64,000 bases of DNA from Promethearchaeota archaeon. Its GTDB lineage: Archaea > Asgardarchaeota > Lokiarchaeia > Sigyniarchaeales > SOKP01. Positions 4,188 through 31,731 of the stretch are shown here, piece after piece. A program made the translations under genes and the position numbers. The stretch covers positions 160,001 through 224,000 of the forward strand of contig JAHPZA010000006.1 of the NCBI GenBank assembly GCA_019058445.1. The letters are read 5' to 3'. Below the pieces are notes generated by a model. That model did no database searches. It was not told where the DNA came from and saw only the letters and a program-made list of their open reading frames with translations. Position 1 is the first letter of the stretch. Every line of letters starts with the position of its first letter.

Positions 4188-6230
4188 TTATATACTATTA
4201 CCCATTTTATAACCTCGAGCAACAGCTTCCATTACCGTTTCTGGTTTACGAGCATCTCCGATTTTCTCTACTTTAATAGTACCTAGTTGCTTGATTTCTT
4301 TATAAAGAGCATCGTTCGGTTCGACCCCGGTAGCATAATAGATATAATCTATATCACTAATTGCGTTTTCTTTACCCGAAGAGTCTGAATAATTTACATA
4401 ATTTTCGCCGATTTCAGTGACTTTTACACTTGTAAGGAATTTCACACCTAAAGCATCGCATTTATCAAGAAGTACCCATTTCGTAGTCCTTCCTAACGCA
4501 GATCCTAATTTTGGTAACATTTCAAGAACGGTAACCTTATTCCTTCCCTTATGCATCATATCTAACGCAATTTGAGGCTCTAAGGCCTTATAGAATGTAA
4601 GAAAATCAAATGCTTCACGGCTTAATGTTCCATATTTTGCAATGTATATTGCTAATTCTATACCAGTGGCTCCGCCTCCTATAATAACATTGTTCTTACC
4701 AACTGGAGCATCACCGCTTAAAGCATCATTTGCCCAATATACATTTGCTCTGTCAATACCGGGAATAGGAGGTTTTATGGGATTTGAACCAGTGGCGACA
4801 AATGCAACGTCAGGATTGAATTCTTTTACTATATCAATAGTGACATTTTGTTGGAAATGTACATTGATGCCGTATTTCTGAATCCAATAGTTATAATTAT
4901 CTATCATACGTTTAAATTCGTTTCTTCCTGGTGGAATCCAGATTATGTTTAATAACCCGCCAATTTTATCATCCTTCTCAAAAATATGAACATCATGTCC
5001 TCTAATTGCCGCTATTCTCGCAGCCTCTAATCCTCCTGCTCCTGCTCCAATAATCATAACTTTTTTCTTTTCTTTCAATGGTTTCAGTTCAGTTCGGGCT
5101 TCATTTCCCGCTCGAGCATTCCTTAAACACGTGACAGGCATCATCCTGAATACCTGGTCAAAGCATCCTTGATTGCAGCCAATACAGTTCATTATATCTC
5201 TTAATTCACCCTTTTGAGCTTTCATTGGCAGATAAGGATCAGCAATTAACCCTCTTCCAATACAAATAGCATCAGCTTTTCCGGCCATTAAAACTTGTTC
5301 GGCGAGCTCAGGGTTGTTAATTCTATTGGAAGAAAATATAGGAATAGATACACGTTTATGAATATTTTCAGCTAGGTATGTATAACATCCTTCTGGAACA
5401 TCCATTGTTAATTGTGGTGTTTTTGTTTCATGCCAACCACCTGTTACGTTGAAATAATCTAAATATTTACCTAATTCTTCTGCAATAACTACTTTTTCCT
5501 TATATGTATTGCTGCCTGGAACAAAATCATCTCCAGAAATTCGATAGCCAAGAGGGATATCGTCTACTTTAGAACGCATTAATTCAATGGTTTCAATCGG
5601 GAATCTTAAACGATTTTCAAGATCGCCCCCATATTTATCAGTTCTCTTGTTAGTTTTTGGGGAACAAAACTGATCGGTTAAATAACCAGCATTTCCGCAA
5701 ATCTCTACTGCATCGAAGCCTGCTTTCTTAGCTCTAATTGTAGCGTCGGCAAAAGCCTCTTGTTCACGCTTTATATCTTCAAGACTCATTTCCTTAGGAG
5801 TGGTCTTACTAAAATTACTATAAACTGCAGAGGGGGCAATAGGTGTTCTGCCAATTATCTGTGGGAATGCGTTTAGGCCTCAATGGTAAATCCATTTCGA
5901 GGAAGCCCCGCCATGGTATAATTGGCAACAGATCTTTACATCATCTCGAGCATTGTGTACGGCTTCAGTTAATTTCTGTAAATCAGGAATAAATTTATCG
6001 TCATCAACTGCAATCATCGATGGTAAACCCTTTGCATAAACGTCTACATAACACCCTCCTACAATTAGCATTCCAGCACCTCCCTTAGCCCTTTCAACGT
6101 AAAAATCTATCAATTTGTCAGTGATAAACCCATTTTTTGCCAAGTTGAGATGCATCGCAGGCATTATAATACGATTAGACACATCCATATCCTTTATTTT
6201 AAAAGGAGTAAATAGTTTAAAGAACTTCAT
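4188..6230 (-). CDS. fadH: 2,4-dienoyl-CoA reductase / OYE-family NADH:flavin oxidoreductase; two exons (6230-5903, 5872-4188), about 670 aa after removing a 30-nt intron
   Basis: ORF 5880-6230 (NRIIMPAM, ERAKGGAG, QLYHGG) and ORF 4188-5789 (AGFDAVEI, NKRTDKYGG, CIGCNQGC, GAGAGG) are in the same frame. Splicing gives QLYHGGAYAFPQIIGRTPIAPSA, matching the family QLxHxGxYA...P.APSA pattern. Confidence 0.85.
5873..5902 (-). other. Putative 30-nt bulge-helix-bulge (BHB) mRNA intron in the fadH-like gene
   Basis: mRNA: GCG[GGGC]UU^C CUCGAAAUGG-AUUUA-CCAUUGAG [GCCU]AA^A CGC. 4-bp central helix, two 3-nt bulges, inner and outer helices; contains the in-frame UGA. Confidence 0.85.
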
Positions 6231-27076: not shown

Positions 27077-27445
27077 TTAAGTTTTAATAATGATTGTAAT
27101 TGCTCTCGTAAGACGGATAACGTCCATAACTTTTCCTTGCTCTACGATGATTTGTTCTCGACTTATTGCGTGGGTAAAATCTCCTTTTCCTTCACATATT
27201 CGTACGATAGCATTCGGATCTCCAGACATAACAATCTCTGCATTTGGGAGTGTTCCATCCACAATTTTTCCTTTCTTCTCCTTAATTTCTAAATAAAAGG
27301 GATCTTCATTCTCCAGATTAAATTGAAAAGTCATATCCCAGTTTACATCCTTGCCAGCAACGTTAGTAACAAATACCGTTTGTGCCTTAGGATTTCCATT
27401 TAAACCTTCAATAACTTTTGTTAAATTTTCTTTTGCAGCTCCCAT
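27077..27445 (-). CDS. SCP2 sterol/lipid-binding domain protein
   Basis: FQFNL...FYLEI..GKIVDG...AEIV...G..D pattern of the SCP2 fold; in an operon with thiolase/DUF35. Confidence 0.75.
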   Translation of the reverse strand: MGAAKENLTKVIEGLNGNPKAQTVFVTNVAGKDVNWDMTFQFNLENEDPFYLEIKEKKGKIVDGTLPNAEIVMSGDPNAIVRICEGKGDFTHAISREQIIVEQGKVMDVIRLTRAITIIIKT

Positions 27446-27447
27446 TT

Positions 27448-27951
27448 TTAAGCACCTCCCTCGTATTCTGGTTTAGCAATCCATCTTTCATACTCATCTT
27501 CAGGTACAAAAAAGAAATCCGTCATTTTACCTTCTCTGTTTTTGGAAAATACCGCTTTAACTCTTCGTCCTTTTTTAACTTTTGAGGGAACTAGATTTTC
27601 TGAAAATATTCCTTGAAATAAAGCAGTGTCAGCTCCATCTAATTTTATAAAACCTATAGAATAGGGTACCGATTTTATAAACGCAGAAGTTGTATACCAA
27701 ACGATAGTGCTAACCTCAATCGTTCCTGTTTGTTTCATTTCAATCCATTCGGTAGGCGAATAACATTCTGAGCAATTAATTCTTGGAGGCATCCATATTT
27801 TCCCGCAATTTGAATTAGTGCATTTAGTTCCTAACAACTTTTTATTGTTCATGACCTCAATAAAGAACTTAGATTGTCCTCCCATCGTGTATTTATAGTT
27901 AATTTTAATTATATCCCTTATTTCATGTGATTGAAAATCTTGCTTGCTCAT
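27448..27951 (-). CDS. DUF35 family Zn-ribbon/OB-fold protein
   Basis: CTNSNCG...PPRINCSEC, KLDGAD, RVKAVF. Confidence 0.88.
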   Translation of the reverse strand: MSKQDFQSHEIRDIIKINYKYTMGGQSKFFIEVMNNKKLLGTKCTNSNCGKIWMPPRINCSECYSPTEWIEMKQTGTIEVSTIVWYTTSAFIKSVPYSIGFIKLDGADTALFQGIFSENLVPSKVKKGRRVKAVFSKNREGKMTDFFFVPEDEYERWIAKPEYEGGA

Positions 27952-29275
27952 GGTTGTTTCAATCCCTCCTCATTCGTCATTACAATAATCGCAGCATATG
28001 CTGCTCCAGGACCTCCAATTGAGTGCGCTATAGCCCTGCCTTTTTCAATTGTTACTTGGTGCTTACCAGCATCTTCTCGAAGTTGTAGTGCTGCTTCTCC
28101 TGTGCTCATAATCCCTGTAGCACCTACAGCGTGACCGCATCCAATCAATCCTCCTGATGGGCAACATGGTACTTCACCATTAATCCATGGCCCTTCTCCT
28201 GGTTTTTCAAAGCTATTTTCAATCCAAGGACCTCCTTCTCCAAAAGGAACAAATCCCAATTCTTCATACGATATAACCTCTTGCCCGCTAAATGCATCAT
28301 GCAGTTCTGCTAAGTCAACTTGTTGCTTTATTTTATTATAATCAAGTCCTGCCATTTTATAAGCTACTTTAGCTGCATTAATATTTGAATATAATCTTCC
28401 CATATCTTCTCTATTACCTATAAAACAGTCAGTATTCGCCGCACCTACACCCGTAATCCAAATTGGTTTTTCAATACCTAATTCCTTAACTTTTTCTTCT
28501 GGTGCTAGAATTAAGGCCGCTGATGCTTCTGAGTAAAGACAACAATCTAACATTTTAAAAGGATAACAAATAATCCTCGAATTCAAGACATCTTCAATTG
28601 TTAAATCCATCGGAGACTGCGCTTTAGGATTAAGCATTGCGTTTCCATGGTTTTTAACGCTAACAATAGCCAAAATTAACTAAACGTTAAAATTTTAAGC
28701 CATATGCTCTTCAGTTGGATTTCCAAATTCCTCAAAATGAGCATTAACCATAGAAACGTAAGAACTAGCTGCCATCATCCCCATAGGATACTCATAAGTC
28801 AAATCTGCTGAATATGCGATGGCATTGAGCACTTCTGGTGTTGTTGTACCTGTTTAAACTTATTAGGGATATCCTAATTGATTTGTTCATCGTAACAATC
28901 GTTACATTTTTCCAGACCAAGACATAGGCATAGGTCTGACAACCCAGAAGCAACTTCAGCATAAGCCATCCTTACAGTATAGCCGCCTGTAGCACCTCCT
29001 GAGGCAATCCGGGTACCTGGCTTATCATTCATCCCGATGTAACTATTAGTAAAAATATCCGGCATGAATTGCCGTTCAAACAGCTCGTTATAAATCCCAT
29101 ACACTGTTGATTCCAAGTCTTTGTGCGTAATTTGTGCTCCGTTCTTATTGGCATCGTCAAGCGCCAATTTTGTCGCGTCATAAGCCAGCTCAAAATAGGT
29201 CTTATCCAAATATCTTGCTCTAAAAGGTGTTATTCCTACACCTATTATCGCTACTTTTCTCACTTTATTTTTCAC
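27948..29275 (-). CDS. Thiolase-like protein in three exons (29275-28883, 28853-28696, 28665-27948), 422 aa after removing two introns
   Basis: N-terminal ORF (VAIIGVG.TPF...GLEK), a 158-nt middle exon (TGTTTPEVLNAIAYSAD...PTEEHMA) and a C-terminal ORF (VSVKNH.NA..NPKA, AELHDAF, PSGGLIGCGHAVGATG). Exons total 1269 nt = 423 codons. Confidence 0.85.
28666..28695 (-). other. Putative 30-nt BHB mRNA intron (thiolase intron 2)
   Basis: AU[GGCU]UA^A AAUUUUAAC-GUUUA-GUUAAUUUU [GGCU]AU^U GU. Contains in-frame UAA and UAG; splicing gives EEHMAYVSVKNH. Confidence 0.75.
28854..28882 (-). other. Putative 29-nt BHB/BHL mRNA intron (thiolase intron 1)
   Basis: [GAAC]AA^A UCAAUUAGG-AUAUC-CCUAAUAA [GUUU]AA^A CAGG. 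Frameshifting and stop-containing; splicing gives DCYDEQTGTTTPEV. Confidence 0.78.
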
Positions 29276-29353
29276 TCAATATTTTTTAGATTTTTTTGAA
29301 TATATTATAGATATAGATTTAATTTGTCTTTAATCATATTTTAAAATTGTTAA
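29196..29353. repeat. Repeat copy 1: thiolase 5' end plus divergent promoter region
   Basis: taggtcttatccaaatatcttgctctaaaaggtgttattcctacacctattatcgctacttttctcac...atatagatttaat...tattttaaaattgttaat. Confidence 0.85.
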
Positions 29354-29475
29354 TCTTAATTTTGAATTATTAGGTTTGATTCAATAAGAATAGTATAAAT
29401 AATTTTTATATATTAACATAAGTTTTAGATTACTATGGATAATCCAGTTATTATATTTTAAAAAGAGACTTTTCT

Positions 29476-30144: not shown

Positions 30145-30263
30145 ATTTGTAAAAACTGTGGATATAAATCATTGGGTCCTTTTGAAATCTGTTCCAATTG
30201 CAGGATTAAACAAAATAAAGAAAATTAAACAAAAGTAGTAAAGTAAGATAAATCATTTCAAAT

Positions 30264-30417
30264 TAGGTCTTATCTAAATATCTTGCTCTAAAAGGTGTTA
30301 TTCCTACACCTATTATCGCTACTTTTCTCACGTTTTTTCACTTAATTTTATTCGTATTTTTTTATATATTATAAATATAGATTTAATGTTTATTTGCTAA
30401 TATTTTAAAATTGTTAA
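30264..30417. repeat. Repeat copy 2: near-identical thiolase 5' fragment plus promoter
   Basis: About 68 bp almost identical to 29196-29263, followed by a diverged copy of the promoter. Confidence 0.85.
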
Positions 30418-30688
30418 TATTTCCTCAAATGATGGTTTATTAATTATAAGTAGAAATTTAGAACGATTGGAATAAAATGTAAATTATGAATAATCCGCGT
30501 TTTAATTTGTCTTGAATTGTATTTCAAAATGTTAAAATGTCTTAAAGTATGAATTTCAAATAAGTAAAAATCTTATTTTATATAACTAAATGTTTAATAA
30601 TAGCAAAATAGATAAGAATAAATATAAATGCACAAAAAAATTGTTCTTTCTAAATTGCTACTAAGAGAAATTACGATCAGTAAAAGAT

Positions 30689-31540: not shown

Positions 31541-31610
31541 ATTATTGGTAAAGATTCAATTTTACTCTAAAATAAAACAGAAACAAAAATAGATCTTAAT
31601 TCCCTCACTA

Positions 31611-31731
31611 ATTATCGCTACTTTTCTCACTTTATATTCACATAAGCTGTTTTGATTTATTTATATTATAAGATATAGATTTAATTTGTCTTAACTCATA
31701 TTTTAAAATTTTCGATAGAAATTTTGAAATT
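31611..31731. repeat. Repeat copy 3: shorter thiolase 5' fragment plus promoter
   Basis: attatcgctacttttctcacttta...agatatagatttaatttgtctt...catattttaaaatt matches copy 1. Confidence 0.8.

What the first reader, a model, noticed from the sequence alone, without database searches (positions are those of the whole stretch)
28854..28882. Frameshifting 29-nt intron 1 in the thiolase-like gene
Central helix GAAC/GUUU, AAA bulges on both strands and inner stem AUUAGG/CCUAAU; the outer helix is relaxed (BHL-like). Removing exactly 29 nt at the canonical sites joins DEQ to TGTTTPEV and brings the otherwise unannotated 158-nt middle exon into frame. Because the length is not a multiple of 3, stop read-through cannot explain it.
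Basis: partly seen in the sequence, partly recalled or inferred. Interest (0 to 1): 0.85.

Follow-up and report, generated by a model that had tools for sequence, protein, structure and literature searches.

The report
tRNA-type mini-intron in Asgard thiolase gene
A 29-base hairpin insert with the shape cut by the archaeal tRNA-splicing enzyme splits a lipid-metabolism (thiolase-family) gene of an Asgard archaeon, and comparison with 93 related genes shows the gene stays under selection, so its mRNA is very probably cut and rejoined, which has been published for only one archaeal protein gene (cbf5).

Summary

- **The insert.** Window 28854-28882 (minus strand) is a 29-nt insertion in an SCP2/DUF35-type thiolase gene. 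Intron-free orthologs read straight across DEQ|TGT.
- **The motif.** An inner 6-bp hairpin is present. There is no outer helix, so the motif is a relaxed HBh' type.
- **Census.** A motif-free census of 94 orthologs found 32 inserts. All are 28-35 nt and fall into 13 families. At the ortholog-defined cuts, 10 families have 4/4 helix pairs and 3 have 3/4. The background rate of 4/4 is 1.2%.
- **Covariation.** Four other sequences share intron 1. Three of them carry a compensatory exon/intron change, GAGC/GCUU.
- **Selection.** dN/dS against another intron-bearing ortholog is 0.025 at dS about 1.5, yet the intron differs at only 2 of 29 bases.
- **Second intron.** A 30-nt intron (28666-28695) is also canonical.
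- **Machinery.** RtcB is present. Congeners have an (alpha-beta)2 EndA with the crenarchaeal loop. This assembly shows only the non-catalytic subunit.
- **Elsewhere.** EF-2 and other genes of this genome carry similar inserts. Earlier follow-ups in this scan reported the same on other Asgard genomes.

The parts
28883..29275 (-). Exon 1 of the thiolase-family gene (393 nt, 131 codons, ends ...CYDEQ)
   Evidence: ORF list and translation. Thiolase_N match. Aligns to residues 1-131 of the orthologs.
28854..28882 (-). Intron 1: 29-nt BHB-type (HBh') micro-intron that shifts the frame and carries an in-frame TAG
   Evidence: Absent from intron-free orthologs exactly at these bounds. Same-site homologues occur in L008, L038, L044 and L048.
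28885..28888 (-). Central helix H, exon strand (GAAC)
   Evidence: Pairs 4/4 with 28856-28859. Becomes GAGC where the intron strand becomes GCUU.
28882..28884 (-). 5' bulge AAA; predicted cut between 28883 and 28882
   Evidence: Canonical BHB rule, cut after the 2nd bulge base. It matches the ortholog-defined boundary.
28862..28878 (-). Inner hairpin h' (AUUAGG / CCUAAU, loop AUAUC), plus the closing pair U28881-A28860
   Evidence: Predicted by RNAfold. 97% of cells are paired across the 5 homologues.
28856..28859 (-). Central helix H, intron strand (GUUU)
28853..28855 (-). 3' bulge AAA (not closed by an outer helix); predicted cut between 28854 and 28853
28696..28853 (-). Exon 2 (158 nt; TGTTTPEV...EEHMA plus the first two bases of a Tyr codon)
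   Evidence: Aligns to the orthologs at 90-96% identity, contiguous with exons 1 and 3.
28666..28695 (-). Intron 2: 30-nt in-frame BHB intron carrying TAA and TAG. H is GGCU/GGCU (2 G-C + 2 G.U), bulges UAA and AUU
   Evidence: Only one cut position is consistent with the orthologs, and it has 4/4 helix pairs. Shared with L014. Related 29-nt introns sit at the same site in L060, L076 and L104. Splicing gives MAYVSVK, as in the orthologs.
27948..28665 (-). Exon 3 (718 nt including the stop). The three exons total 1269 nt = 422 codons plus stop
   Evidence: Thiolase_C_1 match. Ortholog alignment. PDB relatives are SCP2-thiolase, BbsB and the archaeal acetoacetyl-CoA thiolase.
27448..27951 (-). 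Downstream DUF35/OB-fold partner gene (overlaps the thiolase stop); same operon
   Evidence: OB_ChsH2_C match.
27077..27445 (-). Downstream stand-alone SCP2 gene; same operon
   Evidence: SCP2 match.

Best explanation
Window 28854-28882 is an archaeal bulge-helix-bulge (tRNA-type) micro-intron inside the mRNA of a thiolase-family gene.

Proposed mechanism:
1. In the transcript, the last exon-1 bases GAAC pair with GUUU near the 3' end of the insert. This forms the 4-bp central helix.
2. A 6-bp intron hairpin stacks on one side of that helix. Each splice site lies in an AAA triplet next to the helix.
3. The splicing endonuclease EndA cuts after the second A of each triplet. [quoted passage not shown]
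4. RtcB joins the exons to give GAA CAA|ACA GGT, which restores the frame.
5. A second, 30-nt intron (28666-28695) is removed the same way, and a 422-residue protein is made.

Shown here: the insert boundaries, the motif, its conservation and covariation, purifying selection on the interrupted gene, and the presence of RtcB and, in congeners, of both EndA subunits.

Inferred: actual cleavage and ligation of this mRNA.
For: 1. Boundaries. Nine of 13 orthologs from related genomes are uninterrupted.

2. Census without any motif. In 94 orthologs, all 32 inserts of 8 nt or more are 28-35 nt long and fall at about 8 sites. In 13 independent insert families, the ortholog-defined cut positions show 4/4 central-helix pairs in 10 and 3/4 in 3. 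Neighbouring non-equivalent positions show 4/4 in only 1.2% of cases. Removing every insert at the BHB-rule cuts gives full-length CDSs with no stops and junction peptides identical to the intron-free genes.

3. Covariation. Intron 1 occurs in 5 sequences. The window and L008 have GAAC/GUUU. L038, L044 and L048 have GAGC/GCUU, which combines a synonymous exon change with an intron change and keeps the pair.

4. Selection. dN/dS between the window gene and other intron-bearing orthologs is 0.025-0.044 with dS of 1.1-1.6. Intron 1 differs from that of L008 at only 2 of 29 bases: one in the hairpin loop and one at an internal-loop position. The nearest other copy of the gene in the genome is only 43% identical.

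5. Recoding is excluded by the frames. TAG lies in the exon-1 frame and three TAA codons lie in the exon-2 frame inside the insert.

6. Machinery. An intact RtcB is present. All 9 congeners searched have the catalytic paralogue and 8 also have the second one. The catalytic one is most similar to the Aeropyrum pernix alpha subunit, including the loop segment. Published work assigns Asgard EndA to the (alpha-beta)2 type with the L1 loop (PMC5829648).

7. Same kind of insert in an essential gene. The main EF-2 gene of this genome has a 30-nt insert with a stop and a perfect BHB. Most relatives have an intact gene of about 750 aa.
Against: - No RNA evidence. The spliced junction was not found in metagenome contigs, and no near-identical full-length protein is in the protein collection.
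- The outer helix is missing, and free-energy folding alone does not predict the 4-bp helix (z = -1.1).
- The catalytic EndA alpha subunit was not found in this assembly by Pfam or tblastn. The assembly is 92.6% complete.
- The covariation is one pair and probably one evolutionary event (59 of 500 shuffles reach the score).
- A genome-wide motif scan showed no excess over a decoy, so the genome-wide load is not quantified.
Confidence: 0.85

Rival explanations
1. Pseudogene: the 29-nt and 30-nt inserts are unremoved lesions in a dead gene.
For: Three separate ORFs as encoded. No transcript data. The genome has many thiolase paralogues that might cover the function.
Against: - dN/dS is 0.025-0.044 across saturated synonymous divergence between lineages that share the inserts.
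- There are no other lesions.
- Every one of the 32 inserts in 94 orthologs is 28-35 nt, and removing them restores intact CDSs.
- The inserts evolve far more slowly than synonymous sites.
- The downstream operon partners are intact.
- EF-2 carries the same kind of insert.
Confidence: 0.04
2. Translational recoding: ribosomes bypass the insert (gene-60-type hop), or frameshift through it.
For: For intron 2, GCU followed by UAA, a hairpin and a second GCU 30 nt downstream look superficially like take-off and landing codons.
Against: - Intron 1 has no matching landing codon. CAA would have to land on UAA.
- The three inserts of L006 have none either.
- Stops in both relevant frames rule out a single frameshift.
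- The BHB rule explains all 13 insert families with one mechanism.
Confidence: 0.04
3. The insert is removed at the RNA level, but not by EndA/RtcB. Candidates are another endonuclease acting on the hairpin or an unknown ligase. Alternatively, cells rely on intron-free alleles that coexist in the population.
For: - The EndA alpha subunit was not found in this assembly.
- The outer helix is missing.
- Sister sequences with and without the intron are very close in the gene tree.
Against: - The cut positions coincide with the EndA rule (2 nt into each 3-nt bulge, 4-bp spacer) in 10 of 13 families. The other three keep 3 of 4 helix pairs.
- The alpha subunit is present in all 9 congeners, so its absence here is most simply an assembly gap.
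Confidence: 0.05
4. Split gene: three polypeptides (133, 45 and 241 aa) assemble into a working enzyme.
For: Each ORF has a possible GTG or TTG start.
Against: - The break points differ between close relatives and fall inside folded domains.
- Exon 2 would have to start 7 codons inside its coding sequence.
- Intron-free orthologs are single chains.
Confidence: 0.02

Closest known systems
BHB intron in the cbf5 pre-mRNA of Crenarchaeota (Watanabe 2002; Yoshinari 2006; Yokobori 2009, PMC2738675)
   Same: A short intron in a protein-coding mRNA with a bulge-helix-bulge motif made from exon and intron bases. It is linked to a hetero-oligomeric EndA, and presence or absence varies among relatives.
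   Different: - A different gene and a different phylum (Asgard).
- Two introns in one CDS here, and up to four in one ortholog (L104).
- At least 13 insert families at about 8 sites within one gene family.
- A narrow 28-35-nt size class.
- Similar inserts in other genes of the same genome, including EF-2.
- Splicing is not yet shown by RNA.
Non-canonical and multiple tRNA introns of Asgard archaea (PMC11291895; bioRxiv 10.64898/2026.10.13.758758) and Thermoproteales
   Same: The same motif, the same presumed enzymes, many independent gains, and relaxed motifs tolerated. In this genome ARAGORN recognises only 23 tRNA genes, 19 of them with introns.
   Different: The host is an mRNA, so the reading frame must be restored to the base. 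The exon half of the motif is coding sequence constrained by the protein.
HBh' relaxed motifs cleaved by (alpha-beta)2 EndA with the crenarchaeal specific loop (PMC3241643, PMC5829648)
   Same: The central helix, one well-formed bulge and the inner helix are present, and the outer helix is absent. The congeners' alpha subunit aligns without gaps through the loop segment of the A. pernix alpha subunit.
   Different: The enzyme of this lineage has not been assayed, and the alpha subunit was not found in this assembly.
IRE1/RtcB splicing of HAC1/XBP1 mRNA, and SOS splicing of transposon hairpins from animal mRNAs (PMC12779559)
   Same: Spliceosome-independent removal of a short structured insert from an mRNA, followed by RtcB ligation.
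   Different: A different endonuclease and a different recognition logic. This is an analogy only.

Membership tests
Archaeal BHB intron (EndA substrate) | 4-bp central helix formed by exon-1 positions -6..-3 and intron positions -6..-3 | tested here: met
   GAAC/GUUU, 4/4 pairs with one G.U. Compensatory GAGC/GCUU in three homologues.
Archaeal BHB intron (EndA substrate) | Two 3-nt bulges on opposite strands, each cut after its 2nd base, giving a functional exon junction | tested here: met
   AAA and AAA. The predicted cuts equal the ortholog-defined boundaries and restore DEQ|TGT.
Archaeal BHB intron (EndA substrate) | Inner helix h' directly after the 5' bulge | tested here: met
   U-A closing pair, a small internal loop, then a 6-bp stem. 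The four homologues have 2 bp, a 1-nt bulge, then 6 bp.
Archaeal BHB intron (EndA substrate) | Outer helix h closing the 3' bulge (strict hBHBh') | tested here: not met
   Zero contiguous pairs in all five homologues. The motif is therefore the relaxed HBh' form, not the strict form.
Archaeal BHB intron (EndA substrate) | Genome encodes a splicing endonuclease able to cut relaxed motifs | tested here: inconclusive
   - This genome has only a paralogue with F and S at the catalytic Tyr and His positions.
- The alpha subunit was not found by tblastn.
- The alpha subunit is present in all 9 congeners and 8 also have the second paralogue; the loop segment is present in the alpha subunits examined.
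Archaeal BHB intron (EndA substrate) | RtcB-type 3'-phosphate RNA ligase present | tested here: met
   Intact 492-aa ORF, 574 bits to PF01139.
Archaeal BHB intron (EndA substrate) | Spliced RNA and/or a circular intron observed | not testable with these tools
   No transcript data. The junction string is absent from metagenome contigs.
Programmed translational bypass (T4 gene 60 type) | Matching take-off and landing codons flanking the gap | tested here: not met
   CAA versus UAA for intron 1. No match for the L006 inserts.
Self-splicing group I/II intron or any Rfam family | Match to a curated RNA family | tested here: not met
   No Rfam match at E <= 1 in 28500-29100. 29 nt is far too short.
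Repeated mobile element (MITE-like) | Further copies in the genome | tested here: not met
   The best other blastn-short match in the 4.6-Mb genome is 14 nt.

The most novel reading that the evidence does not exclude
This Asgard lineage runs routine, genome-wide mRNA splicing by the tRNA machinery (EndA plus RtcB). Introns of about 30 nt are gained, precisely lost and perhaps transferred at many sites of ordinary protein genes. That includes essential ones such as EF-2, and up to four introns per gene. The closest prokaryotic relatives of eukaryotes would then already have mosaic protein-coding genes whose expression depends on an RNA cut-and-join step.
Probability: 0.6. Interest if true: 0.9.

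Novelty: new variant of a known kind. Interest (0 to 1): 0.8.

Why it matters
Published archaeal mRNA splicing rests on one gene, cbf5, in Crenarchaeota. Here one metabolic gene family alone shows at least 13 independent tRNA-type micro-intron families. Their boundaries are exact, the host gene stays under strong purifying selection, and the organism belongs to the archaeal group closest to eukaryotes.

If RNA data confirm this, three things follow:
- Gene callers systematically break or truncate genes in these genomes.
- EndA/RtcB has a much wider substrate range than tRNA and rRNA.
- How introns spread and are precisely lost in a prokaryote becomes testable. Sister sequences with and without intron 1 differ by only about 0.1 substitutions per site.

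Tried and rejected
1. Genome-wide scan for a 4-bp helix plus ORF-merging, with and without a hairpin-energy filter. There was no excess over a parallel-pairing decoy at any length. Adjacent same-strand genes swamp the signal, and real hairpins also feed the decoy. It cannot be used to count introns. Only individually convincing hits were kept.

2. Paralogue-based, motif-free search (all ORFs of 180 aa or more by tblastn against the genome). It gave 47 loci with stop-containing inserts, but boundaries against 30-45% identical paralogues are too fuzzy. BHB candidates did not outnumber decoys there.

3. My first boundaries for intron 2 (MA|IVS) gave no canonical helix. The boundaries 28666-28695, from a first-reader note, give GGCU/GGCU and MAYVS as in the orthologs, so I adopted them after testing.

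4. Free-energy folding of 53 nt does not recover the central helix.

5. The junction string was not found in metagenome contigs. The protein search found no full-length relative above 92% identity. There is therefore no transcript-like record.

6. Rfam gave nothing. There are no other genomic copies of either intron.

7. The L013, L080 and L105 inserts at site 435 and the site-451 inserts have only 3 of 4 helix pairs. I kept them as relaxed cases rather than forcing other cuts.

Full report
**What is in the sequence.** The gene lies on the minus strand and is encoded as three ORFs:
- 29275-28874: 133 aa, weak Thiolase_N match.
- 28832-28695: 45 aa.
- 28673-27948: 241 aa, Thiolase_C_1 match.

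It is followed by a DUF35/OB-fold gene and a stand-alone SCP2 gene. The closest solved relatives are SCP2-thiolases, the BbsB thiolase subunit and the archaeal acetoacetyl-CoA thiolase that works with a DUF35 partner.

The minus strand reads ...GAT GAA CAA, then 29 nt (28882-28854), then ACA GGT ACA.... The exon-1 frame meets TAG two codons into the insert. The exon-2 frame contains three TAA codons inside the insert. Neither read-through nor a single frameshift can therefore join the exons.

The window is G000:C6:160001-224000 of a 4.6-Mb, 10-contig, 34% G+C assembly. The nearest named homologues come from Hermodarchaeota/Promethearchaeota MAGs, so this is an Asgard archaeon.

**Ortholog test.** The 241-aa piece finds orthologs at 85-91% identity in 13 of 30 related genomes. 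Nine of these are uninterrupted ORFs of 415-434 aa. The nearest other copy in this genome is only 43% identical, so no intron-free duplicate exists.

**Motif-free census.** I added 80 metagenomic orthologs and aligned all 94 genes. I then listed every insertion of 8 nt or more relative to an intron-free reference, without using any structural rule.
- There are 32 insertions. All are 28-35 nt long.
- They sit at about eight sites (reference nt 370, 375, 435, 448, 451, 525, 532/533 and 915).
- They form 13 sequence families.

For each family I took only the cut positions that give the ortholog sequence. I then asked whether exon positions -6..-3 pair with intron positions -6..-3.
- Ten families have 4/4 pairs and three have 3/4.
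- At neighbouring non-equivalent positions, 4/4 occurs in 3 of 246 cases (1.2%).
- For the window's intron 1, four cut positions are equivalent. Shuffled introns reach 4/4 in 0.7% of trials.
- Removing all inserts at the BHB-rule cuts yields full-length CDSs with no stops and with junction peptides identical to the intron-free genes. L038 could not be judged because its extracted region included unrelated sequence.

**Anatomy of intron 1.**
- Central helix: GAAC (28888-28885) pairs with GUUU (28859-28856).
- 5' bulge: AAA (28884-28882), cut after 28883.
- Inner helix: U28881-A28860, a small internal loop, then AUUAGG/CCUAAU with loop AUAUC.
- 3' triplet: AAA (28855-28853), cut after 28854.
- No outer helix.

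This is the relaxed HBh' form rather than strict hBHBh'. RNAfold alone predicts only the inner hairpin (z = -1.1). That is a weakness, although a 4-bp helix between two bulges is not expected to win on free energy.

**Conservation and covariation.** Intron 1 is shared by the window, L008 (congener G002) and three metagenome contigs. The window and L008 have GAAC/GUUU. L038, L044 and L048 have GAGC/GCUU. This is a synonymous GAA-to-GAG change in the exon matched by U-to-C in the intron. The pair count gives 98% of cells paired, against 25-55% when partners are slid. There is one doubly changed pair, and 59 of 500 shuffles reach the covariation score. I read this as one supportive event, not as statistical proof.

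**Selection.**
- Between the window and L008, dS is 1.47 and dN/dS is 0.025. Against L014, L044 and L048, dN/dS is 0.025-0.044.
- The intron differs from that of L008 at only 2 of 29 bases: one in the hairpin loop and one at an internal-loop position.
- The gene has therefore stayed under strong purifying selection while carrying the insert, and the insert itself is constrained.

**Gain and loss.**
- In a tree of the spliced genes, all tested intron-1 carriers fall in one 10-member clade (SH-aLRT 96). That clade also holds intron-free members, including close sisters: L044 with L047, and L048 with L110.
- The intron has therefore been precisely lost, or gained, several times on short branches.
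- The near-identical site-915 intron occurs in two separate clades.

**Intron 2.** My first guess at its bounds failed. The bounds 28666-28695 give a helix GGCU/GGCU (two G-C and two G.U pairs) and bulges UAA and AUU. The inner stem is 9 positions long with two U-U mismatches, and splicing yields MAYVSVK as in the orthologs. The intron is shared with L014. Of the four differences between the two copies, one turns a U-A stem pair into U.G and the others lie in the loop or the U-U internal loop. The gene is thus three exons of 393, 158 and 718 nt, together 422 codons plus the stop.

**Machinery.**
- RtcB is intact.
- Pfam finds one EndA-family ORF in this genome. Aligned to the M. jannaschii enzyme, it has F and S where the catalytic Tyr and His sit and keeps only the Lys. 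The triad identity is from my own knowledge; the alignment is. It therefore looks like the structural subunit.
- Eight of the nine congeners have two paralogues.
- In the three congener copies examined (L023, L025, L031) the stronger paralogue carries Y, H and K. The L023 copy is most similar to the A. pernix catalytic alpha subunit and aligns without gaps through its specific-loop segment.
- This agrees with the published assignment of Asgard EndA to the (alpha-beta)2 type with the L1 loop (PMC5829648).
- That alpha gene is not found in this assembly by tblastn. The assembly is 92.6% complete, so I treat this as a probable gap, but it is unresolved.
- ARAGORN recognises only 23 tRNA genes here, 19 with introns. 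This fits the heavily interrupted Asgard tRNA genes described in PMC11291895 and bioRxiv 10.64898/2026.10.13.758758.

**Other genes.** Two attempts to count such introns genome-wide failed: a motif scan and a paralogue-based search. Individual hits are convincing by motif and by the conserved peptide that removal restores:
- EF-2 (C10:684116-684145).
- Acetyl-CoA synthetase (C10:622214-622245).
- A ChlI/ChlD-type chelatase (C9:269043-269072).
- A Sir2-type protein (C9:775863-775892).
- A CODH/ACS-like gene (C6:396802-396833).
- The FadH-like reductase in this window (5873-5902).

The EF-2 ortholog is an intact frame of about 750 aa in most relatives but only 689 aa here. An essential gene thus carries the same kind of insert.

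**Rivals.**
- A pseudogene is contradicted by the selection data and by the exact, size-restricted inserts.
- Translational hopping lacks matching codons for intron 1 and for the L006 inserts.
- A MITE-like repeat is excluded, and so is any Rfam family.
- Removal by another enzyme, or reliance on intron-free alleles, cannot be excluded without RNA.

**Comparison with what is known.** The full-text library yields only the crenarchaeal cbf5 intron as a published BHB intron in an archaeal coding sequence (PMC2738675). Asgard papers describe tRNA introns only. Earlier follow-ups in this scan reported the same phenomenon in several other Asgard genomes. Those are unchecked AI notes, not independent evidence.

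**Verdict.** The case is a new variant of a known kind and is of high interest, pending RNA proof.

Noticed in passing
window 28666-28695 (minus strand): Second BHB intron in the same gene. It is 30 nt, in frame, and carries TAA and TAG. The helix is GGCU/GGCU. It is shared with L014 (G008), and related 29-nt introns occur at the same site in three metagenome contigs.
   Followed up: yes
window 5873-5902 (minus strand) = G000:C6:165873-165902: A 30-nt insert in a FadH/old-yellow-enzyme-like reductase. Helix GGGC/GCCU, bulges UUC and AAA, inner hairpin present. Removal joins ...QLYHGGA to (Y)AFPQIIG.
   Followed up: partly
G000:C10:684116-684145 (minus strand; locus L115/L116): The main EF-2 gene has a 30-nt insert with an in-frame stop in the switch-I region, with a perfect BHB (ACAG/CUGU, 9-bp hairpin). 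Most relatives have an intact EF-2 frame of about 750 aa. A 36%-identical paralogue and a partial 97-98% identical copy of the C-terminal third also exist.
   Followed up: partly
G000:C10:622214-622245, C9:269043-269072, C9:775863-775892, C6:396802-396833, C10:5858-5887: Further 30-32-nt BHB-shaped inserts. Removing them restores conserved motifs in acetyl-CoA synthetase, a ChlI/ChlD chelatase, a Sir2-type protein and a CODH/ACS-like gene; the fifth gene (C10:5858-5887) was not identified and has only the BHB shape.
   Followed up: partly
G000:C9:770595-770843 (L001) and the whole genome: The only EndA-family gene found in this assembly has F and S at the catalytic Tyr and His positions, so it is beta-like. 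The catalytic alpha paralogue, present in all 9 congeners searched, is not found.
   Followed up: partly
window 29180-29357, 30248-30421, 31599-31719: The thiolase 5' end (about the first 25 codons) plus its upstream AT-rich promoter region is repeated three times, about 1.07 and 1.3 kb apart (61-93% identity). Each copy precedes a different plus-strand gene.
   Followed up: partly
orthologous loci L045, L046, L061, L062, L091, L104 (reference nt 915): A nearly identical 30-nt intron with a strict hBHBh' motif (5-bp outer helix) sits at the same site in two separate clades of the gene tree. This suggests either transfer between alleles or very strong constraint.
   Followed up: partly
whole genome G000: ARAGORN finds only 23 tRNA genes in 4.6 Mb, 19 of them with introns. 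Most tRNA genes are probably too interrupted to be recognised.
   Followed up: no
window 28883-29275 (exon 1): The position of the thiolase nucleophilic Cys reads GGATGG, with no Cys. The enzyme may be an Ltp2/SCP2-type thiolase-like protein rather than a true thiolase (not analysed further).
   Followed up: no
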